A DNA stretch of 44,826 bases from a virus (taxonomy: Duplodnaviria > Heunggongvirae > Uroviricota > Caudoviricetes): IMG/VR virus record IMGVR_UViG_2585427971_000012. One strand, 5' to 3'. Positions 2,753 to 31,309 of this stretch are shown here, one piece after another (positions within the stretch are counted from its first letter, which is position 1; each line of letters begins with the position of its first letter). The notes under the pieces were generated by a model. It was given only the letters and a program-made list of their open reading frames with translations, searched no databases and was not told the origin of the DNA. A program made the position numbers and the translations under genes.

Positions 2753-5700
2753 TCAACTGATACTGATGCCGGCTGTTGATTTCTTCATCACGACAACAAG
2801 AAGGTCGCTGATACTGGTCGTTGGCGTCCAGTTATTTGCACCATATGAAGAAACATTGAAAGTCAGGGTGACATGGCCGTGTCCGGCAGGCATATCAATG
2901 ACTGATGAAAATACCCTGCTGACATCCGTCGCGGGTTGCTGAAAGATTTCCTGTCCGTTCTTCAGCACCTGCAGCTTACAGGTTGAATACCAGTATGACT
3001 GTTGGTTGTTGCTGTTGAAGTTTTCATGCTTACCACCGCGAAACAGAACGGGGGGGACGACTATCTGACGGTCAAAAGCCTGGTCATCGTACACAGTGAC
3101 CGTTATTGTACCGCTGGCATAACTGCCATTTCTCGGAAAGGCTTTTCCCACCGTTTTGACAATATCACCTTCAATCTGGTTAGCTGACAGTTTTCCCAGA
3201 ATCCGACAGTTCTGGTTAATCGTGACATTATTGAGCGTCCCGGAGTTCGCATTCACGTTACCGCTGATATCCGCATTTCTCGCAGAAAGTCGACCATCAG
3301 GTGTCAGTGAAAACGTTGGGGGATTGCCACCGCTGGTAATGGTGGGAGCCGTCAGATATTTCAGGAACACTTCGTTCATGAATATCTGATCGCCCTGCCC
3401 AACAAACATCGGCTTTGTATTGCCATTCGCAGGATTAATCATCGCAATCCTGTCCGCCGCCAGCAGCACCTGACTCTGCATACCGTCAGGGGTATTCTCA
3501 ATACCGGCACCAATACCCGCGATATAAAGGCGTCCGTCCTGCATCTGCTGCAGCTTCACAGCCCACATGCTGTTCAGGTTATTATTTGTATCAACCTGAA
3601 CCTTCTGTATCTGCTGGATCGCTGCACTCTGGTCTTCCAGTTTCTTATTGACGGTCTGCGTGATTTCATTGCTGACATCCGTAATGGACGTCCTGATTTC
3701 AGCCAGGTCAGGCGCAAGCTGACCGTTATCAATCTGCGTCCACAACTCCTGAGCCAGATGGGTTTTCCCTATCTCTCCTTTGAAAAAATCCAGATAGCCG
3801 GATGCATCATCACTCGGCTGGCCAACAGCCTCCACAAATGCCGATTTGCCAACGGTGTTCACACTGCGAATGTAAAAATAATAATCATGGCCCGGTTTGA
3901 TATTGATACTGGCGGCTATCCAGTACAGCGCCGTACCAAGATAACGCGCGCTGGCTTCAACCTGCCTGATATCCGCAATCCGCTTTTCCGAGAACCAGAA
4001 CTCAAACTGTACCGTCGGATCATAAACGGCAAGATGCGGCGTTGCGGTTATCTGAAAATAGCCCGGCGTCAGCTCAATCCGCGATGGCGCTGCCGGTGCG
4101 GCAATCCGGAACGATACCGACGCCGGATCCCCCTGCTGCCCCCACGCATTTACCGCCCGGACTGTCAGCCTGTAGTTCCCCAGCGCCAGTTGCCTGAAGC
4201 GGTATGTGGTTTCCGTCGTCCTGGCCGTGCTGACCAGCCGCTCACTGCCGTCATCCGCTGCCACGGTCAGGCGAAGCATAAAGCTCACCCCCTTCACCAC
4301 CTTCGGTGTGTCCCATCGCGCCAGCACCTGATATTCCCCGCTGTCTGCGGTGACTTCTGCGGTCAGGTGCTGCACCGCGGGCGGCGTGACACCATTCACC
4401 GTGCCACTCTGTTCGCCGTCAAAGTGCGCCCCGTTATCCACGATGGTCTCTTTTTCCGGCATATGCTGCACGGCGGTGATGGCATACGTGCCGTCGTCGT
4501 TTTCACGGATACTCACGCAGCGGAACAGTCGCTGGCGCAGCGTCGGCAGCTTCAGCCCCCATACGCTGTATTCAGCAACACCGTCAGGAACACGGCTCAC
4601 TTTCACCTTCACGCCGTCGGTGACGGACTGAACCTCCACGCTGACCGGATTGCCACTTCCGTCAACCAGGCTTATCAGCGTGGTACCGGAGGATGGCAGC
4701 GTGATTTCACGGTCGAGCGTCAGCGTCCGGGTCTGGCTGTTCACCGCCAGCACACGACCACCGGTGCTGATACCGGCATAGTCATCATCGCAGATTTCAA
4801 TGACATCCCCCGGTACATGGCGAAGCCCTTCAGCACCCACGCTGAAGTCCACGGTCTGCGTTTCCAGCAGCTCCGTTTTAATCAGCCACAGCCCGGCGCG
4901 GTGTGCCTGCCCCCGGCTGGTACAGCCAAAGGCATCCATCTTCGTGACGTTACGGCCGTAACGGGCAATGGCCTGCGTATCCTCCACGAGCTCTGTCGCC
5001 GTCTCCCAGCCGTTATCCGGGTCAATCCAGTTCACCTCAACGGCATTATGGCGGTCCTTCAGGGCGCTGAAGCTGTAGCGGAACGGCGCGCCATCATCCG
5101 GCATCACCACATTACTGCGGTTATAGGTCCACACCTTATCTGATGGTCGGTCCTGCACGAACGTCAGCGTCTGCCCGTTCCATACCGGCATACAGCGCAT
5201 CGCCGAGCAGAAATCACTGAGCACATCCCACGCCTTGCGCTGTGTGGTCAGGTACGCATTACAGGTAATGCGCGGCTCCGTGCCGCCAAAGCCGTCCGGC
5301 ACCGACTGGTCGCAGTACTGGCCGATGACATACAGCGCCCATTTATCCACATCCGCCGCACCAAGACGTTTCCCCATGCCGTAGCGCGGATGGGTCAGCA
5401 TATCCCACAGACACCAGGCCATGTTGTTGCTGTATGCCGGTTTTAACGTTCCGTCCCAGATACCGCTGTATTGCCGCGTCTGCGGGTTATAGTTCGACGG
5501 CACCTGCAGAATGCGCCCGCGAAGATGATAATTACGGCTCACCTGCTGGCTGCCGAACTGCTCCGAGTCCACCTGCACGCCAACCAGTGCCGTGTTCGGG
5601 TAGCACTGTTTCACATCGATGATTTCGGTGTATGACGACCAGAGCGTTTTGTTCAGCAGCTGGTCTGTGGTGCTGTCCGGCGTCATCCTGCGCATCCGGA

Positions 5701-6235
5701 TATTAAACGGGCGCGGCGGCAGGTTATCCACCACCACCGAGGCCAGATACTGCGAGGTGGTTTTGCCCTTAATGGTGATGTCTTTTTCCGTCACCCAGCC
5801 ACCGTTACGCTGTATCTGAACCAGCAGGCGAACTTCCGACGGATTCCTGTCTCCCTTTGAGGTGGTTTCCACCAGTGCCTGTACACCGAAGGTAAAGCGC
5901 AGACGGTCGATGTTTGCCGACGTGATGGTCCGGGTGATCGGCGTGTCATATTTCACTTCCGTACCCAGCACCGTCTCGGAGCCGGAGGATTCAAATCCCT
6001 CCGGCGGTGACTGCTCCTGCTCACCGGCCCGGAACACCACCGTGACGCCGGATATATTGGTATTCCCCTCACTGTCCAGCACCGGCGTACTGTTCAGCAG
6101 CACGCTTTTTAATCCATCCACCGGACCTTCAACCGGCCCTTCGCTGATGGCATCGATCACACTCAGCAGCTGCGTGGACTTCAGGTTGTCCTTCGCTTCG
6201 CGCGGGGTATGCCCCTTACTGCTGCCTTTACCCAT
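2753..6235 (-). CDS. J: Tail tip / host specificity protein J (1160 aa)
   Basis: N-terminus [34 protein letters not shown]... and most of the length match lambda gpJ as recalled; C-terminal ~150 aa diverge. Confidence 0.95.
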
Positions 6236-6295
6236 TCGTCATGCTCCATAAACGATAAAACCGCCCGGAGGCGGTTTCACATAAAACGTTTTTCA

Positions 6296-6937
6296 TCAGC
6301 GACCAATCACCACAACCTGACCACCATCACCTTCATCTGCTGTGCTGATCTCCTGAGATACCACACGTGATCCCACGCGCATTTCACCGTACAGAACGGG
6401 CAGAACATTGCCCTGGGCAACCATATTATCCAGTGAAGAAAAATAGGTGTTCTGTTTGCCGTTATCCGTTGTCTGTGTGCGGGGGGTTCTGGGTTTAGGG
6501 GCCAGCATCTGTGCAACACCGCCAAGCGTCATACTGGCACCGAGAGAAAACAGCAGATTACTCGCCATAATTCCTACCCCCGGCATCCATATAGCAACCG
6601 CCATAACAGCCGCCCCCAGCACAGCCTGAAACACACCGCCACTTTTGGCTCCTGCCAGACGCGGCACGATATGGATCACAGCACCATTTGCCAGCGGTTC
6701 ATTAAGACGGGCTGATAATTCCGTTTCACCTGTATCACGCCCGGCAATCCGTACCTGATACCAGCCGTCGCTCAGTTTCTGACGAAACGCCGGGAGCTGT
6801 GTGGCCAGCGCCCGGATGGCTTCAGCCCCCGTTTTCACACGAAGGTCGATGCGGCGGCCAAATCGTTGTAAATCCCCGTAAAGGCAGATGCGCGCCATGC
6901 CCGGTGACGCCAGAGGGAGTGTGTGCGTCGCTGCCAT
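6296..6937 (-). CDS. I: Tail assembly protein I
   Basis: MAATHTLPLASPGMARICLYGDLQRFGRRIDLRVKTGAEAIRALATQLPAFRQ... matches lambda gpI as recalled; sits between K and J. Confidence 0.9.
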   Translation of the reverse strand: MAATHTLPLASPGMARICLYGDLQRFGRRIDLRVKTGAEAIRALATQLPAFRQKLSDGWYQVRIAGRDTGETELSARLNEPLANGAVIHIVPRLAGAKSGGVFQAVLGAAVMAVAIWMPGVGIMASNLLFSLGASMTLGGVAQMLAPKPRTPRTQTTDNGKQNTYFSSLDNMVAQGNVLPVLYGEMRVGSRVVSQEISTADEGDGGQVVVIGR

Positions 6938-7582: not shown

Positions 7583-8281
7583 TTACTGCGAAAGTTTGTT
7601 AATGGAAAGGAAGCCGCCAAAGTTGCCGACGTTATTGCGGAACTTACAACCGCTCAGGCATTTGCTGCATTTATCCTTCGTGATATCGGACGTTGGCTGG
7701 TCATATTCATCCGCGACAGCCGGACCGCTATAACCGCACTCGTCACCGCGATAGGTCCAGGTGCAGGTGTTGGCCAGCATGATACGTCCCGGAAAAACAG
7801 CGCCATCCGTTTCCGTCGGCGTGGACAGTACAAAGGAGGCACTCACCGCGCTCAGTTCGCTGCACTGCTCAATGCGCCAGCGGCTGATCACCTCCTGCTC
7901 CGGATCGGCATAACTGTTTCCGTTGACGAAGTTCACCGCATCCAGAAAACGGGCGTAAACCTTACGCCGGACCACCGTTCCGCCGACCAGACTCTGCAGA
8001 TCTTCCGCCATCCCGGTGACCATACCGTACAGGTTAGAAACCGTCAGCGTGGGGCGCGTACTGGTGCCTTTGCCATTCAGTTCAAAACCGCTCCCCTGAA
8101 TGGGATACGGCTGATACTGTCGCCCCTGCCAGGTGACCGGCTCACCTTTTTCGTTCTGCTCATTACAGAAAAAATAACGTTCTCCACCGACCTCTGTCAG
8201 GTCGATTTCCCAGAGCACCACGCTGGCCGACTGCTCCGCACGGGTGCATTCATTCAGTGTTTCCTGCCGGATATCCTGCAT
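7583..8281 (-). CDS. L: Minor tail protein L (232 aa)
   Basis: MQDIRQETLNECTRAEQSASVVLWEIDLTEVGGERYFFCNEQ... matches lambda gpL as recalled, including the C-terminal Cys cluster. Confidence 0.9.
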   Translation of the reverse strand: MQDIRQETLNECTRAEQSASVVLWEIDLTEVGGERYFFCNEQNEKGEPVTWQGRQYQPYPIQGSGFELNGKGTSTRPTLTVSNLYGMVTGMAEDLQSLVGGTVVRRKVYARFLDAVNFVNGNSYADPEQEVISRWRIEQCSELSAVSASFVLSTPTETDGAVFPGRIMLANTCTWTYRGDECGYSGPAVADEYDQPTSDITKDKCSKCLSGCKFRNNVGNFGGFLSINKLSQ

Positions 8282-8610
8282 CAGTTCACCACCTGTTCAA
8301 ACTCTGCGCTGAACTCAACACGCAGCATACTGACCCGCGACGACCATTTTGCGCAGGTCACCTTTATCTGCTGCCACTCATAAGGCGGCGTCCACAGAAA
8401 GGATTTCCAGCCCCCGTGCTCTTCCAGAAACGACTCCAGTACCGTGGCCTCCTCACGGGGGACAGAAAGCGTCACGCTGTACGTTTTCAGGTTGGCATTC
8501 AGCCCGGCAGGCGCTCGCTGAGAATAGCCATCACCAAAGCGCACCTTTCTTACAGAAGGGACCGAAGCCACATCCATACCGGGTTTCACTTTCCAGCGGA
8601 AGGTCTTCAT
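8281..8610 (-). CDS. M: Minor tail protein M (109 aa)
   Basis: MKTFRWKVKPGMDVASVPSVRKVRFGDGYSQRAPAGLNANLKTY... matches lambda gpM as recalled; overlaps the L start by 1 nt. Confidence 0.9.
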   Translation of the reverse strand: MKTFRWKVKPGMDVASVPSVRKVRFGDGYSQRAPAGLNANLKTYSVTLSVPREEATVLESFLEEHGGWKSFLWTPPYEWQQIKVTCAKWSSRVSMLRVEFSAEFEQVVN

Positions 8611-11168
8611 CGTCCACCTCCGGAGAACAGGCCACCATCACGCATCTGTGTCTGAATTTCATCACGGGCACCCTTGCGGGCCATGTCATACACCGCCTTC
8701 AGAGCAGCCGGACCTATCTGCCCGTTCGTGCCGTCGTTGTTAATCACCACATGGTTATTCTGCTCAAACGTCCCGGACGCCTGCGACCGGCTGTCTGCCA
8801 TGCTGCCCGGTGTACCGACATAACCGCCGGTGGCATAGCCGCGCATCAGCCGGTAAAGATTCCCCACGCCAATCCGGCTGGTTGCCTCCTTCGTGAAGAC
8901 AAACTCACCACGGTGAACAATCCCCGCTGGCTCATATTTGCCGCCGGTTCCCGTAAATCCTCCGGTTGCAAAATGGAATTTCGCCGCAGCGGCCTGAATG
9001 GCTGTACCGCCTGACGCGGATGCGCCGCCACCAACAGCCCCGCCAATGGCGCTGCCGATACTCCCGACAATCCCCACCATTGCCTGCTTAAGCAGAATTT
9101 CTGTCATCATGGACAGCACGGAACGGGTGAAGCTGCGCCAGTTCTGCTCACTGCCGGTCAGCATCGCCGCCATATTCTGTGCAATACCATCAAAGGTCTG
9201 CGTGGCTGCACTTTTTACCTGCGACATACTGTCCGTGGCGCTCTCTTCCCACTCACTCCAGCCGGACTTCAGGCCTGCCATCCAGTTCCCGCGAAGCTGG
9301 TCTTCAGCCGCCCAGGTCTTTTTCTGCTCTGACATGACGTTATTCAGCGCCAGCGGATTATCGCCATACTGTTCCTTCAGGCGCTGTTCCGTGGCTTCCC
9401 GTTCTGCCTGCCGGTCAGTCAGCCCCCGGCTTTTCGCATCAATGGCGGCCCGTTTTGCCCGTTGCTGCTGTGCGAATTTATCCGCCTGCTGCGCCAGCGC
9501 GTTCAGGCGCTCCTGATACGTAACCTTGTCGCCAAGTGCAGCCAGCTGGCGTTTGTACTCCAGCGTCTCATCTTTATGCGCCAGCAGGGATTTCTCCTGT
9601 ACAGACAGCTGGCGACGTTGCGCCGCCTCCTCCAGTACCGCGAACTGACTCTCCGCCTTCCACAAATCCCGGCGCTGCTGGCTGATTTTCTCATTTGCTC
9701 CGGCATGCTTCTCCAGCGTCCGGAGTTCAGCCTGAAGCGTCAGCAGGGCAGCATGAGCACTGTCTTCCTGACGATCGCCCGCAGACACCTTCACGCCGGA
9801 CTGCTTCGGCTTTTTCAGTGTCGTTTCATAGTCCTTTTTCGCTGCCGCCATCAGCGTGTTGTAATCTGCCTGCAGGATTTTTCCGTCTTTCAGGGCCTTA
9901 TTCAGTTCTTCCTGACGGGCGGCATATTTCTCCAGCGGCGTCTGCAGCCGTTCGTAAGCCTTCTGCGCCTCTTCGGTATATTTCAGCCGTGACGCTTCGG
10001 TATCGCTCTGCTGCTGCGCATTTTTGTCCTGTTGACTCTGCTGTTCAGCCTTCTTTCGGGCGGCTTCAAGCGCAAGACGGGCCTTTTCACGATCATCCCA
10101 GTAACGCGCCCGCGCTTCATCGTTAACAAAATAATCATCCTTGCGCAGATTCCAGATGTCGTCTGCTTTCTTAAACGCAGCCTCTGCCTTAATCAGCATC
10201 TCCTGCGCGGTATCAGGACGACCAATATCCAGCACCGCATCCCACATGGATTTGAATGCCCGCGCAGTCCTGTCTGCCCAGGTCTCCAGCGTGCCCATGT
10301 TCTCTTTCAGGCGGCGGGTCTGGTCATCAAACCCTTTCGTTGCGGCCTCGTTCGCCGCCTGCAATGCCCCGGCTTCATCGCCGGAACGCTGCAACTGAGC
10401 AACATACGCAATCTGCTCCGCCGTCACGTTATGGAACTGGCGTGCCATCGCCGTCAGCCCCGACGTCGGGTCTGTGGTCAGCTTCCCGAAGGCTTCAGCG
10501 ACCTTGTCCACCTCCACGCCGGATGCAGAGGAGAAACGCGCCACACTCTGGCTGATGGACGCAATCTGAGCCTCACCGCTTACCCCCGCCTTAACCAGTG
10601 CGCTGAGTGACTCGCTGGTCTGGTTAAACGTCAGCCCTGCCGCCTGCCCGGCTCTGGACAGGACCAGCATACGATCTGCCGTCAGACCCGCCTGATTGCC
10701 GGAAAGGACCAGCGTTTTGTTGAAATCGGACAGGGTTGAGTTGCCCTGATACCAGGCATACGCCAGCGCACCGGTCGCCACCGCCAGCGAGGTGGCCCCC
10801 ACCATCGGCAGGGTGATCGCACCGGCAAGCCCCCTGAACATGGGGATCATCCCGCCGAAGGAGTCCTTCACCTGCCCCCCCTGTTGCAGCAGGATCAGCC
10901 ACGGACTTTGCCCGCCTGCAAGCTGCGTGGCCACGTCGGTGAACTGTGCAGGCAGCATACGCATGGCGGCTTTATACTGCCCGACGGAAATCCCCGCTTT
11001 CTGTGCAGCCAGCGCCTGTCGGCTCAGCGACTGTTCAACGACTGCCGCTGTTTTTTTCGCATCACTTTCCGTACCGGAAAAATGACGCCTGACTCTGGCC
11101 ATCTGCTCGTCAAATCTGGCCGCATCCAGACTCAAATCAACGACCAGATCGCCTACCGGTTCAGCCAT
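8607..11168 (-). CDS. H: Tail tape measure protein H (853 aa)
   Basis: Length equals lambda gpH (853 aa); Ala/Gln-rich coiled-coil middle and Gly-rich C-terminus; position between G-T and M. Confidence 0.95.
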   Translation of the reverse strand: MAEPVGDLVVDLSLDAARFDEQMARVRRHFSGTESDAKKTAAVVEQSLSRQALAAQKAGISVGQYKAAMRMLPAQFTDVATQLAGGQSPWLILLQQGGQVKDSFGGMIPMFRGLAGAITLPMVGATSLAVATGALAYAWYQGNSTLSDFNKTLVLSGNQAGLTADRMLVLSRAGQAAGLTFNQTSESLSALVKAGVSGEAQIASISQSVARFSSASGVEVDKVAEAFGKLTTDPTSGLTAMARQFHNVTAEQIAYVAQLQRSGDEAGALQAANEAATKGFDDQTRRLKENMGTLETWADRTARAFKSMWDAVLDIGRPDTAQEMLIKAEAAFKKADDIWNLRKDDYFVNDEARARYWDDREKARLALEAARKKAEQQSQQDKNAQQQSDTEASRLKYTEEAQKAYERLQTPLEKYAARQEELNKALKDGKILQADYNTLMAAAKKDYETTLKKPKQSGVKVSAGDRQEDSAHAALLTLQAELRTLEKHAGANEKISQQRRDLWKAESQFAVLEEAAQRRQLSVQEKSLLAHKDETLEYKRQLAALGDKVTYQERLNALAQQADKFAQQQRAKRAAIDAKSRGLTDRQAEREATEQRLKEQYGDNPLALNNVMSEQKKTWAAEDQLRGNWMAGLKSGWSEWEESATDSMSQVKSAATQTFDGIAQNMAAMLTGSEQNWRSFTRSVLSMMTEILLKQAMVGIVGSIGSAIGGAVGGGASASGGTAIQAAAAKFHFATGGFTGTGGKYEPAGIVHRGEFVFTKEATSRIGVGNLYRLMRGYATGGYVGTPGSMADSRSQASGTFEQNNHVVINNDGTNGQIGPAALKAVYDMARKGARDEIQTQMRDGGLFSGGGR

Positions 11169-11595
11169 ACCGGACTCCTCCTGCGATCCCTTCTGATACT
11201 GTCATCAGCATTACGTCATCCTCCGTCATGTCCGCCACATCCGGGGAAGCGGGGATAACTTCATTCCCGTCCGGGCCAAAGCGGACACCTCCGGCAAGCC
11301 CTGCCGCTTTCTGCATCAGCACATCATCTTCAGGCTCTTCGTCAGCCTCGCGCCGGTTCAGCAGACTGAAATCCAGCGGATGCATATCCGGATCGCTGAA
11401 AAACAGGCTGAGCACGGTGTACGTCAGCCCGGAAAAGTGCATATCCAGCAGAACATCATGAAAATAATGGGTACTGTAAAAGCGGTGCCAGTCGGCATAC
11501 TCCGTGGATGACATCCCGGCAAGCATGGCACGCCAGTCGGGTCGCCCCATCTCACGCGCCAGTTTCAGGGCAAAACTCAGCTCACCGTCGAACAC
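11161..11595 (-). CDS. T: T segment of the G-T tail assembly chaperone (made by -1 frameshift from G)
   Basis: ORF in the -1 frame relative to G, beginning at the slippery site; translation FDGELSFALKLAREMGRPDWRAMLAG... is lambda gpT-like. Confidence 0.8.
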   Translation of the reverse strand: MFDGELSFALKLAREMGRPDWRAMLAGMSSTEYADWHRFYSTHYFHDVLLDMHFSGLTYTVLSLFFSDPDMHPLDFSLLNRREADEEPEDDVLMQKAAGLAGGVRFGPDGNEVIPASPDVADMTEDDVMLMTVSEGIAGGVRYG

Positions 11596-11999
11596 TTTCC
11601 CGCAGAAACAGGCTCTGCAGGCCCGGCGTCCTCTGCCTGTTCGGGGGCATTATTCACCACAAACTCATACATACCGGACAGCCGGTACACCACGTTTTCA
11701 GCATGAGAAATTGCCTCTGTGGGCCAGGTGGTAAGCACTTCCTGCTCAATCTGTTTAACGGCTTCATTCATGGACGGCATCTGCGTCTTCTTCGGATGGT
11801 TATGCCACAGGGACATCGCCACCAGAAACGCGCCGGTTCTGATGACGTCTTCCACAGTAACCTGCCGGTTGCTGTCGGATCCCGCCGGTTCTGCCTGCCG
11901 TTTCATCAGGGCAAGATGCTCAATACGCTGCAGGGCTGACAGTTCAGAAAGCGTGACGGTCACGCCGTTATATTCAAATGATTCGGTTTTCAGGAACAT
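11577..11999 (-). CDS. G: Tail assembly chaperone G (140 aa)
   Basis: MFLKTESFEYNGVTVTLSELSALQRIEHLALMKRQ... ends ...PVSAGKCSTVS, matching lambda gpG as recalled. Confidence 0.9.
   Translation of the reverse strand: MFLKTESFEYNGVTVTLSELSALQRIEHLALMKRQAEPAGSDSNRQVTVEDVIRTGAFLVAMSLWHNHPKKTQMPSMNEAVKQIEQEVLTTWPTEAISHAENVVYRLSGMYEFVVNNAPEQAEDAGPAEPVSAGKCSTVS
11595..11601 (-). other. Programmed -1 ribosomal frameshift heptamer GGGAAAG (G to G-T)
   Basis: Minus-strand sequence ...CTGCGGGAAAGTGTTCGACGG...: G GGA AAG lies at the G/T frame junction, 5 codons before the G stop, as in lambda. Confidence 0.8.
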
Positions 12000-22349: not shown

Positions 22350-22471
22350 ACAGTGAGGCGTTGTGTGGCATACAACGCCTTCTTCCATCATTCCTCGTCA
22401 GCCATGACAAAAATATAACCGCTGGCTCTTTCATTTTTCTCCTGCTTCCAGCCCCTCTCTACCTGGAAGCA

Positions 22472-22798
22472 TCAAGGACGTGACGGCGTAAAGATAAATT
22501 GTCTCTTCACTCCCTGACAGGGGCGATTCTTTTCAAATCGCCATTTCGCCATGGCCTTCACCACTTCATCACGAAACAAATTATGAGGCTCTGAGCGGAG
22601 AAAAACGATCCGTGTCACAGTCCCATCAGCACCAATATCGAACTTAACCTCAACCAGCCCCTTGATATAATTTGCTGCAGCATATTCCGGATATCGTGGA
22701 TACACCGTCACTAATTGCCGGGGCTCATCAGCTTTTTGCTGCGAGCATCCCACTGCCAGGACAGATAACAGAAAAAGTAGTAAAAGGCGTCTTTTCAT
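22472..22798 (-). CDS. Lipoprotein with TonB C-terminal-like domain (108 aa)
   Basis: From the ATG at 22798: MKRRLLLLFLLSVLAVGCSQQ (signal peptide plus lipobox Cys) then YPRYPEYAAANYIKGLVEVKFDIGADGTVTRIVFLRSEPHNLFRDEVVKAMAKWRFE, which fits the TonB C-terminal domain pattern (YP..A....G.V.V.F.I...G.V, ...W.F). AGGA Shine-Dalgarno upstream. Confidence 0.6.
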   Translation of the reverse strand: MKRRLLLLFLLSVLAVGCSQQKADEPRQLVTVYPRYPEYAAANYIKGLVEVKFDIGADGTVTRIVFLRSEPHNLFRDEVVKAMAKWRFEKNRPCQGVKRQFIFTPSRP

Positions 22799-23278
22799 TT
22801 TTATTCCTACGGGTCTTATTCTGACAATATATCCTGTGTTCCAGACTGCCACATCACCACATCCTGTGCCATTATCTGACTCACATTACATACATCGCAT
22901 CGGGATACAGTAGTAGCACTTTCTGTAATACAGCTTCCTGTTTCTTCCACCATCGCACCGGGATAAACCCGCGAATCATTAACGCGGTAAAAACCCGGTG
23001 TGCATCGTTTTTAATTATTCCCGCACACTCACGCAGAAGGAATTCCCCGTCGGGCTACGGTCATGGTTAATGCGGGAATACGGCGACGATACAGCGCAGC
23101 TAAAAGGGTAATGGACGGATAGACCGGTTTATTTCATTCCACAGGATTCTGAGTGTCCCCAACTTCCTCCAATAGTCTGAGCCCACCTGTGTAGTTTTAA
23201 TTTTCATCAATCCATTTAACTATCGTTTAATTGTTGTCACATAGGATTCTGCCGTTTTTAACAATGCAGGATAATAAG

Positions 23279-23572
23279 ATGAAAAAAATGTTGTTTTCTG
23301 CCGCTCTGGCAATGCTTATTACAGGATGTGCTCAACAGACGTTTACTGTTGGAAACAAACCTACAGCAGTAACACCAAAGGAAACCATCACCCATCATTT
23401 CTTCGTTTCGGGAATTGGGCAGAAGAAAACTGTCGATGCAGCAAAAATTTGTGGTGGTGCAGAAAATGTTGTTAAAACAGAAACCCAGCAAACATTCGTA
23501 AATGGATTGCTCGGTTTTATTACTTTAGGCATTTATACTCCGCTGGAAGCGCGTGTGTATTGCTCACAATAA
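23279..23572 (+). CDS. bor: Bor lipoprotein (serum-resistance lipoprotein, 97 aa)
   Basis: From the ATG at 23279: MKKMLFSAALAMLITGCAQQTFTVGNKPTAVTPKETITHHFFVSGIGQKKTVDAAKICGGAENVVKTETQQTFVNGLLGFITLGIYTPLEARVYCSQ matches lambda Bor; antisense to the late genes as in lambda. Confidence 0.95.
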   Translation: MKKMLFSAALAMLITGCAQQTFTVGNKPTAVTPKETITHHFFVSGIGQKKTVDAAKICGGAENVVKTETQQTFVNGLLGFITLGIYTPLEARVYCSQ

Positions 23573-27242: not shown

Positions 27243-28545
27243 GCTTCACCTCCACAGAGGTCAGACGCTAGATGCAAAAAAACGCAGGTGCATTTCTGCA
27301 TCTGTGAAGGGAGAAGAGAGTTTGGATTGTGTGTGCGCATAAACGTCCCCGTTTAGCGCAGAAGTCACCGGAGTTGTTCAGGCTCCGGTGATACAATTAT
27401 GGCGAATTGATTATTCATAATCAAACAAGATAAGGTCTCAAACTTCATGCAAGCCAAGATTTATTTCTGACAGAATTATACAAAGAAGCTATTGGTCAGA
27501 ATCTACTCGGACTGTAAAACATACGCATAACCTTAAGCTCTCACTTTAAGCATTGTTGAAATAATAGCCGTCAAGTACAACCTTAACCACGACTGGGATA
27601 TTTCCCTGGCTACCACGAGTTGTACGGCTATTAAACTGCCGTTAAATTTAGTAAGAGAATTTCATCCGATAAGTCAAGGCATGTAAAACATGAAAATTAA
27701 CAAGATATTATCATCTGCAACACTATTGTATGGTATGTCAATGGCCATGTCGGTCGGGAGTTGTGCAACACCTGTCCAGACTAATCTTCCTGGTTACACC
27801 CCGGGTGCAGATATCATTAGTGTTTCACCGACCAGAAACCAGGTCGATCTCATTGGTGATGTTGTTTATTCCCAGATAAAAGGAACTCGTTCTGTCAGAC
27901 AGCTTCACATGTCAGTTCTTGTCCCGCGAACAAATGATTTAAAACCAGCCATTATTTATTATCCCGGCGGCGGATTCATGTCTTCTGAACATGACAAATT
28001 TATTGAAATGAGAATGGCTCTGGCAGAAGCTGGTTTTGTTGTGGCCGCTGTAGAATACAGAACAATTCCTGATACATTTCCAGCACCAGTTGAGGATGGA
28101 AAAGCTGCAATACGTTACCTGAGAGAGCATGCCAGCAATTATGGGATTGATCCTCAAAGAATCGGAGTTCTGGGTGACTCTGCCGGTGGATGGCTTGCCC
28201 AGATGATGGGAACTACAAATGGTGACAAAACCTTTGATAAAGGTGACTTTCTTCAGCAATCCTCAGATGTTCAGGCAGTTGCCACACTTTATGGGATTTC
28301 TGACTTGTTGAATATTGGCGAGGGGTTCCCTGAATCAGTGCAGGAGGTTCATCGCTCTCCTGCCGTAACCGAAGCCTTAATGATCAATGGCCCTGCATTC
28401 AGAAATTTTGCGGGAGCCCCCATCACAGCGTCAAAAGAAAAAGCGCTAAACGCCAGTCCAATCGGACATATGAAAGGAGTAAAACCCCCATTTCTTATTA
28501 TGCATGGTAGCAAAGACACTCTGGTTTCACCTGAGCAAAGCGCCA

Positions 28546-28553
28546 AACTATTC
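28546..28553. repeat. Target-site duplication, left copy (AACTATTC)
   Basis: Exact 8-bp direct repeat abutting the IS left end; IS66-family elements make 8-bp TSDs. Confidence 0.8.
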
Positions 28554-28638
28554 GTAAGCGTAAACTGACCGCCGTATGTAGCCATCAGACGAGAATTGGT
28601 AACTTAGACGCCCATCTGATATAGACGGACATCTAAGT

Positions 28639-29064
28639 ATGGAATTACAGGACTGGCGAAAAGAACCTCGTAAAAACTATTCGAATGAATTCAAACTTCG
28701 TATGGTGGAACTGGCATCACAACCTGGAGCTTGTGTTGCACAGATTGCACGTGAAAATGGCGTCAATGATAATGTTATTTTCAAATGGCTCAGGCTCTGG
28801 CAGAACGAAGGGCGTGTTTCGCGGCGTCTTCCGGTAACGACCTCTTCTGACACTGGCGTTGAATTATTACCTGTAGAAATAACGCCGGATGAGCAGAAAG
28901 AACCTGTGGCGGCCATTGCGCCGTCTTTATCCACTTCCACTCAGACCAGAGTCAGTGCCAGTTCCTGCAAGGTGGAATTCCGTCACGGTAACATGACGCT
29001 GGAAAATCCATCGCCAGAGCTGCTCACAGTGTTGATCCGTGAACTGACCGGGAGGGGAAGATGA
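28639..29064 (+). CDS. tnpA: IS66-family accessory protein TnpA (141 aa)
   Basis: ORF track; first of three co-oriented IS ORFs; N-terminal HTH-like segment. Confidence 0.8.
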   Translation: MELQDWRKEPRKNYSNEFKLRMVELASQPGACVAQIARENGVNDNVIFKWLRLWQNEGRVSRRLPVTTSSDTGVELLPVEITPDEQKEPVAAIAPSLSTSTQTRVSASSCKVEFRHGNMTLENPSPELLTVLIRELTGRGR

Positions 29065-29411
29065 TCTCACTCCCATCAGGTACCCGTATCTGGCTCGTTG
29101 CCGGCGTTACCGATATGCGTAAATCCTTCAACGGACTGGGAGAACAGGTACAACATGTGCTGAATGATAATCCCTTCTCCGGTCACCTGTTTATCTTCCG
29201 TGGCCGACGGGGTGACACCGTCAAAATTCTTTGGGCTGATGCTGATGGTCTGTGCCTGTTCACCAAACGCCTGGAGGAAGGCCAGTTTATCTGGCCTGCG
29301 GTACGTGACGGCAAGGTATCCATTACCCGCTCGCAACTGGCAATGCTCCTCGATAAGCTGGACTGGCGTCAGCCAAAAACATCCAGCCGTAACTCACTGA
29401 CAATGTTGTAA
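29061..29411 (+). CDS. tnpB: IS66-family accessory protein TnpB (116 aa)
   Basis: ORF track; overlaps the tnpA stop by 4 nt; MISLPSGTRIWLVAGVTDMRKSFNGLGEQV... is the characteristic IS66 orfB N-terminus as recalled. Confidence 0.8.
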   Translation: MISLPSGTRIWLVAGVTDMRKSFNGLGEQVQHVLNDNPFSGHLFIFRGRRGDTVKILWADADGLCLFTKRLEEGQFIWPAVRDGKVSITRSQLAMLLDKLDWRQPKTSSRNSLTML

Positions 29412-29441
29412 AAAACTCCTGACCGCATTATAAAAACGGTC

Positions 29442-31055
29442 ATGAGTCAGAAATACCTCATTCGCATCGCAGAGCTGGAAAGGTTGCTCTCTGAGCAGGC
29501 TGAAGCCCTCCGTCAGAAAGACCAGCAACTGAGTCTGGTTGAAGAGACGGAAGCCTTCCTGCGCTCTGCACTGACACGTGCCGAAGAAAAGATCGAAGAA
29601 GATGAACGGGAAATAGAACATCTGCGGGCTCAGATAGAAAAACTGCGCCGGATGCTGTTCGGTACCCGTTCTGAAAAACTGCGTCGTGAAGTTGAACTGG
29701 CTGAGGCTCTGCTGAAACAACGTGAACAGGACAGCGATCGTTACAGTGGGCGGGAAGACGATCCTCAGGTTCCCCGCCAGTTGCGACAGTCGCGCCATCG
29801 TCGTCCGTTACCGGCACACCTTCCCCGTGAAATACACCGCCTGGAGCCAGAAGAAAGCTGTTGCCCGGAGTGTGGCGGTGAGCTGGATTATCTGGGGGAA
29901 GTCAGCGCTGAACAGCTGGAACTGGTGAGCAGTGCCCTGAAAGTGATCCGCACAGAACGGGTAAAAAAAGCCTGTACAAAATGTGACTGTATTGTTGAAG
30001 CACCGGCGCCGTCCCGCCCGATAGAGCGTGGTATCGCGGGCCCCGGATTACTTGCCCGCGTGTTAACGGGAAAATACTGCGAACATCTGCCACTGTATCG
30101 TCAGAGTGAAATCTTTGCCCGCCAGGGTGTCGAACTGAGCCGGGCCTTACTCTCCAACTGGGTTGACGCGTGCTGCCAGTTAATGACACCGGTGAATGAT
30201 GCCCTGTACCGTTATGTAATGAACACCCGCAAGGTTCACACTGATGACACACCGGTAAAGGTACTGGCACCGGGTCAGAAAAAGGCGAAAACAGGGCGTA
30301 TCTGGACGTATGTCCGGGATGATCGCAATGTGGGTTCGTCATCTCCTCCAGCGGTCTGGTTCGCGTACTCGCCGAACCGGCAGGGGAAACACCCGGAGCA
30401 ACACCTCCGCCCCTTCCGGGGTATCCTGCAGGCGGATGCGTTCACAGGTTACGACAGGTTGTTCAGTGCAGAACGTGAAGGTGGTGCACTGACAGAAGTT
30501 GCGTGCTGGGCCCATGCCCGGCGAAAAATCCACGATGTATACATCAGCAGCAAAAGTGCGACGGCAGAAGAAGCCCTGAAGCGAATCAGTGAACTGTACG
30601 CCATCGAGGATGAAATACGGGGATTACCGGAGTCAGAGCGTCTTGCCGTCAGGCAGCAGCGAAGCAAAGTGTTACTGACGTCGCTGCATGAATGGATGGT
30701 GGAGAAGAATGGTACGCTGTCGAAAAAATCCAGACTGGGCGAAGCGTTCAGCTATGTACTGAATCAGTGGGATGCCCTCTGTTATTACAGTGATGACGGT
30801 CTGGCGGAGGCGGATAATAATGCTGCGGAAAGAGCGCTTCGTGCAGTCTGTCTCGGAAAGAAAAACTTTATGTTCTTTGGCAGCGATCACGGCGGCGAGC
30901 GTGGAGCACTGTTGTACGGGCTGATCGGCACCTGCCGTCTGAACGGTATCGATCCGGAAGCGTATCTGCGCCATATCCTGAGCGTACTGCCGGAATGGCC
31001 TTCCAACCGAGTTGACGAACTCCTGCCATGGAACGTAGTACTCACCAATAAATAA
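29442..31055 (+). CDS. tnpC: IS66-family transposase TnpC (537 aa)
   Basis: ORF track; leucine-zipper-like N-terminus, CxxC...CxxC zinc-finger-like segment (CCPECGGE...CTKCDC), large DDE-type core. Confidence 0.85.
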   Translation: MSQKYLIRIAELERLLSEQAEALRQKDQQLSLVEETEAFLRSALTRAEEKIEEDEREIEHLRAQIEKLRRMLFGTRSEKLRREVELAEALLKQREQDSDRYSGREDDPQVPRQLRQSRHRRPLPAHLPREIHRLEPEESCCPECGGELDYLGEVSAEQLELVSSALKVIRTERVKKACTKCDCIVEAPAPSRPIERGIAGPGLLARVLTGKYCEHLPLYRQSEIFARQGVELSRALLSNWVDACCQLMTPVNDALYRYVMNTRKVHTDDTPVKVLAPGQKKAKTGRIWTYVRDDRNVGSSSPPAVWFAYSPNRQGKHPEQHLRPFRGILQADAFTGYDRLFSAEREGGALTEVACWAHARRKIHDVYISSKSATAEEALKRISELYAIEDEIRGLPESERLAVRQQRSKVLLTSLHEWMVEKNGTLSKKSRLGEAFSYVLNQWDALCYYSDDGLAEADNNAAERALRAVCLGKKNFMFFGSDHGGERGALLYGLIGTCRLNGIDPEAYLRHILSVLPEWPSNRVDELLPWNVVLTNK

Positions 31056-31085
31056 GCGTCAATACGGTGCTCCGTTGACGCTTAC

Positions 31086-31093
31086 AACTATTC
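31086..31093. repeat. Target-site duplication, right copy (AACTATTC)
   Basis: Exact 8-bp direct repeat abutting the IS right end. Confidence 0.8.
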
Positions 31094-31275
31094 AGGATGT
31101 TGAAGAAGAACGGTGATAACGCTGAGTACGTGCTGGTAGAAGGGGCCGAGCATGGCGATAAGACATGGTATCAGCCAATTATTATAAACAGAGTCGTTGA
31201 GTGGTTTACTAAAAACCTGGGAGCGCCTATAAAAACAGCTCCCCAACAACAAAACCCAAACGCTAACCTGTAAAA

Positions 31276-31309
31276 AGAGGGAGGGCTAAGCCCTCCCCAT
31301 TCAATTTTG
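31276..31309. terminator. Candidate bidirectional intrinsic terminator between the esterase 3' end and the adhesin 3' end
   Basis: GGGAGGGC(31279..31286)/GCCCTCCC(31290..31297) stem with 3-nt loop; U-rich flank on both strands (plus ATTCAATTTTGTT; minus UCUUUUUA). Confidence 0.5.

What the first reader, a model, noticed from the sequence alone, without database searches (positions are those of the whole stretch)
27690..31273. Lipoprotein alpha/beta-hydrolase gene split by an IS66-family element with intact 8-bp target duplication
The insertion falls between the Ser/Asp region (GDSAGG, HGSKDTLV) and the catalytic His (EGAEHGD), so the encoded esterase is inactivated. Both flanks and the perfect AACTATTC duplication are preserved, indicating a recent event with a reconstructible pre-insertion allele. 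The gene is a second cargo gene, on the opposite strand to and convergent with the adhesin, sharing its terminator.
Basis: seen in the sequence. Interest (0 to 1): 0.5.

Follow-up and report, generated by a model that had tools for sequence, protein, structure and literature searches.

The report
ISEc23 splits a prophage esterase gene
A common E. coli jumping gene (ISEc23) has recently landed in an esterase gene carried by a lambda-like prophage of the ST131 lineage and cut off its catalytic histidine, which is an ordinary event, although this small stretch of the prophage is hit by the same element unusually often.

Summary
Window 28554-31085 is a complete 2,532-bp ISEc23 (IS66 family: tnpA, tnpB, tnpC; 20/24 terminal inverted repeats). 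It is flanked by a perfect 8-bp duplication, AACTATTC (28546-53 and 31086-93). Removing the IS and one repeat copy restores a 347-aa gene. That restored locus matches hundreds of E. coli genomes at 100% (EC958, JJ1886 and other ST131; WP_000700202.1) and eight lambda-like phages at 99%.

The protein is a BD-FAE/PHROG-3341 alpha/beta-hydrolase esterase with a lipobox (Cys25). Its triad Ser164/Asp276/His308 aligns residue for residue with that of crystallised BD-FAE. The IS sits after codon 288, so the 292-aa product lacks His308. RefSeq already annotates this insertion as a pseudogene in strain AZ148, the only one of 5,426 complete genomes with this junction.

The finding is therefore real, recent, correctly interpreted and ordinary.

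One thing was noticed in passing. This locus carries at least 20 different ISEc23 insertion sites across ST131 genomes (101 genomes), against 2 genomes for a GC-matched control region of the same prophage. Nineteen of the sites lie within about 2 kb around the convergent 3' ends of the esterase and inverse-autotransporter genes. This is a regional hot spot of unknown cause.

The parts
27690..28553 (+). 5' part of the esterase gene (codons 1-288). It holds the signal peptide with lipobox Cys25, the PGGG oxyanion motif at 92, the nucleophile Ser164 in GDSAGG and the acid Asp276 in HGSKDTLV. As it now stands, the ORF reads on to 28568 and gives 292 aa (288 native residues plus VSVN from the IS).
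   Evidence: Pfam BD-FAE 153.9 bits; PHROG 3341 'esterase' E=1.9e-129; annotated as a pseudogene in AZ148
28546..28553 (.). Left copy of the 8-bp target-site duplication AACTATTC
   Evidence: a single copy in the empty site
28554..31085 (+). Complete ISEc23 (IS66 family), 2,532 bp
   Evidence: 100% identical full-length copies annotated as ISEc23 in many E. coli records; the same unit at 20 other sites
28554..28577 (+). Left terminal inverted repeat (GTAAGCGTAAACTGACCGCCGTAT)
   Evidence: 20/24 match to the right end
28639..29064 (+). tnpA (141 aa), HTH accessory protein
   Evidence: PF01527; NF047595 83 bits against a cut-off of 74
29061..29411 (+). tnpB (116 aa), IS66 Orf2; its ATG overlaps the tnpA stop codon (ATGA)
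   Evidence: PF05717 125 bits; NF033819 121 bits
29442..31055 (+). tnpC (537 aa), DDE transposase with leucine-zipper, zinc-finger, DDE_Tnp_IS66 and IS66_C domains
   Evidence: PF03050 327.6 bits; NF033517 452 bits
31062..31085 (-). Right terminal inverted repeat
31086..31093 (.). Right copy of the 8-bp target-site duplication AACTATTC
31094..31273 (+). 3' part of the esterase gene (codons 289-347 plus stop). It holds the catalytic His308 in EGAEHGD and is now separated from its promoter and 5' part.
31278..31298 (.). GC-rich hairpin between the two convergent stop codons. It is terminator-like on both strands, with a good T-run only on the minus (adhesin) strand.
31310..35575 (-). Convergent neighbour: a 1,421-aa inverse autotransporter adhesin (IAT_beta barrel plus Big_1/Invasin_D3 repeats), intact in this window
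   Evidence: WP_022645049.1 in EC958 and AZ148

Best explanation
The window is the lambda-like prophage integrated next to icd in E. coli ST131. Between replication gene P and the nin genes it carries two convergent cargo genes: a lipoprotein esterase of the BD-FAE type and an inverse-autotransporter adhesin. A copy of ISEc23 transposed into the esterase gene by the usual DDE mechanism, with staggered cuts 8 bp apart that were repaired into the AACTATTC duplication. It entered after codon 288. The gene now encodes a 292-aa product that keeps the signal peptide, Ser164 and Asp276 but lacks His308 and the last 59 residues, so it cannot act as a serine hydrolase. The event is very recent and confined to one sublineage. 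The adhesin gene, its terminator and the phage genes are untouched. Shown here: the identity, ends and duplication of the IS, the intact ancestral allele, and the position relative to the triad. Inferred: loss of enzyme activity, lipoprotein export to the outer membrane, and the substrate (an ester on a carbohydrate or lipid at the cell surface).
For: - IS anatomy and duplication.
- IS66 family membership of all three ORFs.
- Full-length ISEc23 copies at 100% identity in many genomes.
- Reconstructed locus 100% identical, in one piece, in EC958, JJ1886 and others; 650 records at >=99% identity.
- The same esterase at 99% identity in 8 lambda-like phages.
- Prophage context (P, esterase, adhesin, ybcN/ninE/rusA/Q, int next to icd).
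- Identical junction in AZ148, where PGAP marks both gene halves as pseudogene.
- The window differs from AZ148 by 3 nt in 37,427, and from EC958 by 1 nt outside the IS.
- Triad alignment to BD-FAE (6XYC/6TKX), GH43-CE (6MLY) and Lip_vut4 (6NKF, E=1.6e-37). Published triad Ser128/Asp237/His269.
- 8-bp duplications at 19 of 20 hot-spot sites and 6 of 7 unrelated sites of the same element.
Against: Nothing in the sequence contradicts this explanation. There are four caveats. No transcript, protein or activity data exist for either allele. The truncated lipoprotein could keep a non-catalytic role. The lipoprotein call rests on inspection of the lipobox only. The enzyme's substrate is unknown, because all NCBIfam equivalog models score far below their cut-offs.
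Confidence: 0.95

Rival explanations
1. The insertion is one instance of a regional ISEc23 hot spot caused by how the element chooses targets, not a random hit. Some property of the DNA around the convergent 3' ends of the esterase and adhesin genes (topology, termination zone or bound proteins) attracts IS66-family transposition. This concerns why the IS landed here and is compatible with the main explanation.
For: - Genomes with ISEc23 within about 2.5 kb of the esterase locus: 27 in one orientation plus 74 in the other, so 101.
- The same search design at a GC-matched control region of the same prophage gave 0 and 2 genomes.
- 20 distinct sites were found in 21 sequenced loci, 19 of them within 2,056 bp and 13 within about 590 bp around the terminator.
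- Several sites clip only the last 5-27 codons of either gene, which would hardly select as loss of function.
- Both orientations occur.
- The duplicated base next to the left IS end is C at 12 of 14 sites of one orientation.
Against: - Only one control region was tested.
- The count of independent events is not corrected for phylogeny.
- About 60-68 of the 74 opposite-orientation genomes share one clonal site.
- AT-richness alone does not explain the difference (42.5% against 44.8% GC), but no specific feature was identified.
- The terminal-C bias is absent at opposite-orientation sites and weak at unrelated sites.
- IS1 and ISEc52 also hit the locus, which fits selection equally well.
Confidence: 0.45
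2. The insertion was fixed because losing the esterase, or altering the esterase/adhesin pair, is advantageous in ST131, for example by shedding a surface antigen or a costly cargo gene. The many insertions at the locus would then reflect repeated selection.
For: - Seven different ISEc23 sites lie in the esterase gene and 12 in the adhesin gene.
- Other IS families also disrupt the locus: IS1 in the esterase in AVS0051 (H21), and ISEc52 in the adhesin gene in d1-7 and beside it in A1.S1.126.
- Both products are predicted to be surface-associated.
Against: - About 650 of 734 genomes with the locus keep a >=99% identical intact-length match.
- The commonest insertion changes only the last few residues, giving a 343-aa variant, and others clip the last codons of the adhesin.
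- Within the adhesin gene, all sites lie in the 3' 1.45 kb of the 2.6 kb surveyed. Loss-of-function selection would not favour that part.
- This particular insertion is found in 1 of 5,426 complete genomes, so there is no sign of a sweep.
Confidence: 0.15
3. The split gene is an artefact or a rearrangement: either an IS copy placed wrongly by the assembler, or two different ISEc23 copies recombined so that the flanks were not originally adjacent.
For: ISEc23 is multicopy (median 3 places per genome, up to 47). One related genome, strain 21335 (L014), does show an ISEc23 at this locus without a duplication and with a foreign left flank.
Against: In this window both flanks are colinear with the intact allele and carry a perfect 8-bp duplication. 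The identical junction is present in an independent complete genome, AZ148.
Confidence: 0.02

Closest known systems
ISEc23 (IS66 family), as annotated by NCBI PGAP in E. coli genomes and plasmids
   Same: 100% nucleotide identity over all 2,532 bp, with the same three proteins (WP_000422741.1, WP_000624722.1, WP_000080195.1) and 8-bp duplications.
   Different: Nothing differs. This is a copy of that element. A direct comparison with the ISfinder reference entry could not be run with these tools.
IS66 / IS679 (family prototypes; from general knowledge of the family)
   Same: The tnpA-tnpB-tnpC layout with overlapping tnpA/tnpB, a DDE TnpC, imperfect terminal repeats of about 20-30 bp that begin GTAAGCG, and 8-bp duplications.
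   Different: It is a different member, and protein identities to the prototypes were not measured here.
The same locus in E. coli AZ148 (NZ_CP184080.1)
   Same: Identical junctions, IS and prophage (3 mismatches in 37,427 nt). The esterase halves are annotated there as pseudogenes.
   Different: Three substitutions in the tail-gene region (window 7871, 7910, 7912), so the window may come from a sister isolate or another assembly.
BD-FAE, the bifunctional feruloyl/acetyl-xylan esterase of a Bacteroidetes polysaccharide utilisation locus (PDB 6TKX/6XYC; Pfam PF20434)
   Same: The Pfam family is matched at 153.9 bits. The Ser-Asp-His triad aligns exactly, with the same GxSxG and HGxxD motifs.
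   Different: The relationship is distant (E about 3e-21). The E. coli protein has a lipoprotein signal peptide and a phage context rather than a xylan locus. Its substrate is unknown.
Lip_vut4 (PDB 6NKF)
   Same: It is the closest solved relative, E=1.6e-37 over residues 48-330, with GDSSGG, HGDQDDVV and GAGH aligned to the triad motifs.
   Different: No paper on it was found in the library, so it gives no functional information.
NanS-p O-acetylesterases of Stx prophages (recalled from memory, not tested)
   Same: They are prophage-borne esterase cargo genes of pathogenic E. coli, thought to act on host or surface glycans. This is a possible functional parallel.
   Different: They belong to a different fold family (SGNH/DUF1737 rather than alpha/beta-hydrolase BD-FAE). 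No sequence relationship was looked for.

Membership tests
IS66 family insertion sequence | Three ORFs: tnpA (HTH), tnpB (IS66 Orf2) and tnpC (DDE_Tnp_IS66) | tested here: met
   PF01527, PF05717 and PF03050 with zf-IS66, LZ and IS66_C are all above the gathering scores. NF047595, NF033819 and NF033517 are above their cut-offs.
IS66 family insertion sequence | Imperfect terminal inverted repeats starting GTAAGCG | tested here: met
   20/24 match; both ends begin GTAAGCGT.
IS66 family insertion sequence | 8-bp target-site duplication | tested here: met
   AACTATTC on both sides. 25 of 27 further sites of the same element also carry 8-bp duplications.
ISEc23 (named element) | Near-identity to the reference element | tested here: met
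   100% identity over 2,532 bp to copies that RefSeq names 'IS66-like element ISEc23 family'. The ISfinder entry itself is not available in these tools.
ISEc23 (named element) | Demonstrated mobility | tested here: met
   Identical copies at more than 25 different sites with different duplications in closely related genomes. This is comparative evidence, not an assay.
BD-FAE alpha/beta-hydrolase (Pfam PF20434) | Profile match above the gathering score | tested here: met
   153.9 bits against 26.8, covering residues 80-290 and profile positions 7-214 of 215.
BD-FAE alpha/beta-hydrolase (Pfam PF20434) | Ser-Asp-His catalytic triad in the reconstructed protein | tested here: met
   Ser164, Asp276 and His308 align with Ser128, Asp237 and His269 of 6TKX (PMC8165983). 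In the window's interrupted allele His308 is absent.
BD-FAE alpha/beta-hydrolase (Pfam PF20434) | Feruloyl or acetyl-xylan esterase activity | not testable with these tools
   This needs an enzyme assay. There is no xylan-utilisation context.
Hormone-sensitive-lipase-type esterases (NCBIfam GxSAG subfamilies; Abhydrolase_3) | Score above the subfamily cut-off and an HGGG oxyanion motif | tested here: not met
   The best subfamily scores are 47-55 bits against cut-offs of 380-430. The motif is PGGG, not HGGG. Abhydrolase_3 matches as a weaker overlapping family (81 bits).
Bacterial lipoprotein | Signal peptide ending in a lipobox with an invariant Cys | tested here: inconclusive
   MKINKILSSATLLYGMSMAMSVGS|C25 fits the lipobox pattern by inspection, and residue +2 is Ala. 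No signal-peptide predictor was available.
Inverse autotransporter adhesin (the neighbouring gene) | N-terminal IAT_beta barrel plus a C-terminal Ig-like passenger | tested here: met
   PF11924 at 338 bits over residues 57-334; Big_1 and Invasin_D3 repeats.

The most novel reading that the evidence does not exclude
The roughly 2-kb zone around the convergent 3' ends of the esterase and inverse-autotransporter genes in the ST131 icd prophage is a true regional insertion hot spot for ISEc23. It has at least 20 independent sites in both orientations, against 2 genomes at a GC-matched control. The cause would be a so far undescribed target-choice property of IS66-family transposition, such as attraction to a zone of convergent transcription or termination, rather than selection.
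Probability: 0.3. Interest if true: 0.55.

Novelty: already known. Interest (0 to 1): 0.22.

Why it matters
The finding itself matters little. It is a textbook gene disruption by a catalogued IS in a catalogued prophage gene, and it is already annotated in a public genome. It can serve as a sublineage marker within ST131, and it gives a natural knock-out of a prophage esterase whose function is untested. The by-product is of more interest. IS66-family elements are very common in enterobacteria, and I am not aware of a defined rule for how they choose targets. A compact locus that has collected at least 20 independent insertions would be a convenient substrate for studying that choice, or for asking whether ST131 is shedding these two surface proteins.

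Tried and rejected
- Orientation bias. The first 15 related loci all had ISEc23 in the same orientation as the window. This came from the search tool, which joins pieces only on the same strand. A query with the IS flipped found 74 genomes with the opposite orientation, so the idea was dropped.
- One-query control. A query of flank + IS + reverse-complemented IS failed, because records with two inverted IS copies filled the list. It was replaced by two separate control searches.
- Target consensus. TSDs ending in TC next to the left IS end are strongly enriched at same-orientation hot-spot sites (8/14, p=5e-7). They are not enriched at opposite-orientation sites (0/5) or at unrelated sites (1/6). 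No consensus is claimed.
- AT-richness as the cause of the hot spot. The control region has nearly the same GC content (44.8% against 42.5%) and almost no insertions.
- Literature. Searches for ISEc23 target preference, for a hot spot at this locus, for Lip_vut4, and for the name of the icd prophage or of this adhesin in the inverse-autotransporter survey (PMC6714894) gave nothing usable.
- Not run. Structure prediction and the large protein-database searches were skipped, because the Pfam, PHROG and PDB alignments and the 100% identical intact alleles already answered the question.
Full report
**Observation.**
- A 2,532-bp element occupies 28554..31085.
- Its ends are imperfect inverted repeats, GTAAGCGTAAACTGACCGCCGTAT and GTAAGCGTCAACGGAGCACCGTAT, matching at 20 of 24 positions.
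- It is flanked by AACTATTC at 28546-28553 and 31086-31093.
- It carries three ORFs on the + strand: 28639-29064, 29061-29411 (its ATG overlaps the preceding stop) and 29442-31055.
- The same 8-mer also occurs by chance at 28675, so its mere presence is not evidence. What counts is its position against both IS ends, together with the empty-site test below.

**Identity of the element.**
- The three products pass the curated cut-offs for the IS66 TnpA accessory protein, IS66 TnpB/Orf2 and the IS66 DDE transposase. The transposase has its leucine-zipper, zinc-finger and C-terminal domains.
- The DNA is 100% identical over its full length to copies in many E. coli chromosomes and plasmids that RefSeq names ISEc23. 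2,095 records hold a copy at >=99% identity.
- The same 2,532-bp unit, base for base, was recovered at more than 25 other sites with different 8-bp duplications. This fixes the ends of the mobile unit independently of this locus.

**The interrupted gene.**
- Joining 27690..28553 to 31094..31273 gives a 347-aa ORF.
- The 1,461-nt reconstructed locus is 100% identical, in a single aligned piece, in EC958, JJ1886 and many other genomes. 734 of 5,426 complete genomes carry it, 650 at >=99% identity.
- The gene is annotated there as alpha/beta hydrolase WP_000700202.1.
- Eight lambda-like phage genomes (4A7, Lambda_4C10, Perceval, D2, 1W, 3W, PhiR47_2) carry it at 99.1-99.2% identity, without the adhesin.
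- The protein matches Pfam BD-FAE (153.9 bits) and, more weakly, Abhydrolase_3 and the C-terminal part of Peptidase_S9. It matches PHROG 3341 'esterase' at E=1.9e-129.
- No NCBIfam equivalog model comes near its cut-off, so the substrate is not known.

**Catalytic triad and lipobox.**
- The closest solved relatives are Lip_vut4 (6NKF, E=1.6e-37), a GH43-CE protein (6MLY) and BD-FAE (6XYC/6TKX).
- In the printed alignment to 6XYC (BD-FAE lacking residues 1-7), G162-D-S164-A-G aligns with G-F-S-S-G, H272-G-S-K-D276 with H-G-D-A-D, and A-E-H308 with G-G-H.
- After adding the 7-residue offset, these are Ser128, Asp237 and His269, the triad defined in the crystal structure (PMC8165983).
- The reconstructed protein therefore has an intact triad.
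- The N-terminus MKINKILSSATLLYGMSMAMSVGS|C25 fits the lipobox pattern by inspection. Ala at +2 predicts outer-membrane sorting. This step is inferred.

**Effect of the insertion.**
- The IS follows codon 288, between Asp276 and His308.
- The ORF now ends four codons into the IS, giving 292 aa, and lacks the histidine and the C-terminal 59 residues.
- Loss of hydrolase activity is a strong inference from the serine-hydrolase mechanism but was not measured.
- The gene is monocistronic and convergent with its neighbour, so no polar effect on phage genes is expected.
- The hairpin at 31278-31298 between the two stop codons is outside the IS. It is terminator-like on both strands, with a proper T-run only on the adhesin strand.

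**Context and age.**
- The window is the whole lambda-like prophage next to icd. The gene order is tail and head genes, terminase, iss, lysis genes, Q, rusA, ninE and ybcN, then the esterase, the adhesin, P, O, the repressor region, the recombination genes, xis and int. The window's last base coincides with the end of the int gene.
- The adhesin is a 1,421-aa inverse autotransporter.
- Outside the IS, the window differs from EC958 by one base.
- It differs from AZ148 (NZ_CP184080.1) by three bases in 37,427.
- AZ148 is the only complete genome with the identical 140-nt junction in one piece. PGAP annotates the two gene halves there as pseudogenes flanking ISEc23.
- A perfect duplication, an IS identical to its sister copies and a single carrier among 5,426 genomes all point to a very recent, sublineage-specific event.

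**Rivals to the main reading.**
- An assembly artefact or IS-IS recombination is excluded for this window by the colinear flanks, the duplication and the independent AZ148 assembly.
- One related genome (strain 21335, L014) shows what the alternative looks like. It has no duplication, and its left flank belongs to another ISEc23 site.

**Noticed while searching for empty alleles.**
- Many ST131 genomes carry ISEc23 near this gene at other positions.
- With a query of flank + IS + flank (catchment about 2.5 kb either side), 27 genomes have the IS in the window's orientation.
- With the IS flipped in the query, 74 genomes have the opposite orientation. About 60-68 of these share one clonal site 16 nt before the esterase stop codon.
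- An apparent orientation bias in the first batch was an artefact of same-strand joining and was refuted.
- In 21 loci read at base level there are 20 distinct sites, 19 of them with perfect 8-bp duplications:

| Location | Distinct sites |
|---|---|
| Esterase gene | 7 |
| 3' 1.45 kb of the adhesin gene | 12 |
| Between Q and the holin gene | 1 |

- Nineteen sites lie within 2,056 bp, and 13 lie within about 590 bp around the convergent terminator.
- The same search design at a control region of the same prophage with similar GC content (window 42000-43460; 44.8% against 42.5%) found 0 and 2 genomes.
- IS1 and ISEc52 have also landed in the locus.
- Several ISEc23 sites remove only the last few codons of either gene, and sites within the adhesin gene are confined to its 3' part. 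This fits regional targeting better than selection for loss of function, but neither was tested.
- The duplicated base next to the left IS end is C at 12 of 14 same-orientation sites, and TC at 8 of 14 (p=5e-7). This does not hold for opposite-orientation or unrelated sites and remains unexplained.
- No description of this hot spot was found in the searchable literature.

**Verdict.**
The finding is real, and its interpretation is right in every part that could be tested. It is an ordinary, already annotated IS disruption of a prophage cargo gene. Its interest is low. The recurrent ISEc23 targeting of this locus is the only aspect that may deserve follow-up.

Noticed in passing
window-equivalent 28163-32758 (EC958 locus L001 20764-22819); loci L002-L022: Regional ISEc23 hot spot. 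There are 20 distinct insertion sites in 21 ST131 loci, and 101 genomes have ISEc23 within about 2.5 kb of the esterase, against 2 genomes at a GC-matched control region of the same prophage. The sites cluster around the convergent 3' ends of the esterase and adhesin genes.
   Followed up: partly
L001 position 21318 (window-equivalent 31257); L019, L020: One ISEc23 insertion 16 nt before the esterase stop codon, in the opposite orientation, is shared by about 60-68 complete genomes. It produces a 343-aa variant (WP_029700859.1) and is probably a clade marker within ST131.
   Followed up: partly
target-site duplications at L002-L022 and L023-L029: The duplicated base abutting the left IS end is C at 12 of 14 same-orientation hot-spot sites, and TC at 8 of 14 (expected 6%). 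The bias is absent at opposite-orientation sites (1/5 C) and weak at unrelated sites (3/6 C). It is unexplained.
   Followed up: partly
L014 (strain 21335, NZ_CM190149.1) 9399-11930: An ISEc23 in the adhesin gene has no target duplication. Its left flank (..GTGACCAGTTTTTG) is the flank of a different ISEc23 copy seen in L024 and L027, which indicates recombination or inversion between two IS copies.
   Followed up: partly
H21 (AVS0051), L012 (d1-7) 8042-9211, L020 (A1.S1.126) 5400-6569: Other IS families hit the same locus: IS1 inside the esterase gene, and ISEc52 inside or next to the adhesin gene.
   Followed up: no
window 31310-35575 (- strand): The adhesin contains three nearly identical tandem repeats of about 119 aa (DSDVSTADSSFTLDGDSSPTISADSQ...). 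Strain AZ191 has a shorter 3,552-nt allele, which suggests variation in repeat copy number.
   Followed up: no
window about 22470-23570: A second cargo cluster lies between the lysis and terminase genes: the iss serum-survival lipoprotein and a TonB-family protein, as annotated in AZ148 and EC958.
   Followed up: no
window 7871, 7910, 7912: The only three differences from AZ148 over 37.4 kb are clustered within 42 nt in the minor-tail-protein L region. This looks like a small recombination patch or an assembly difference.
   Followed up: no
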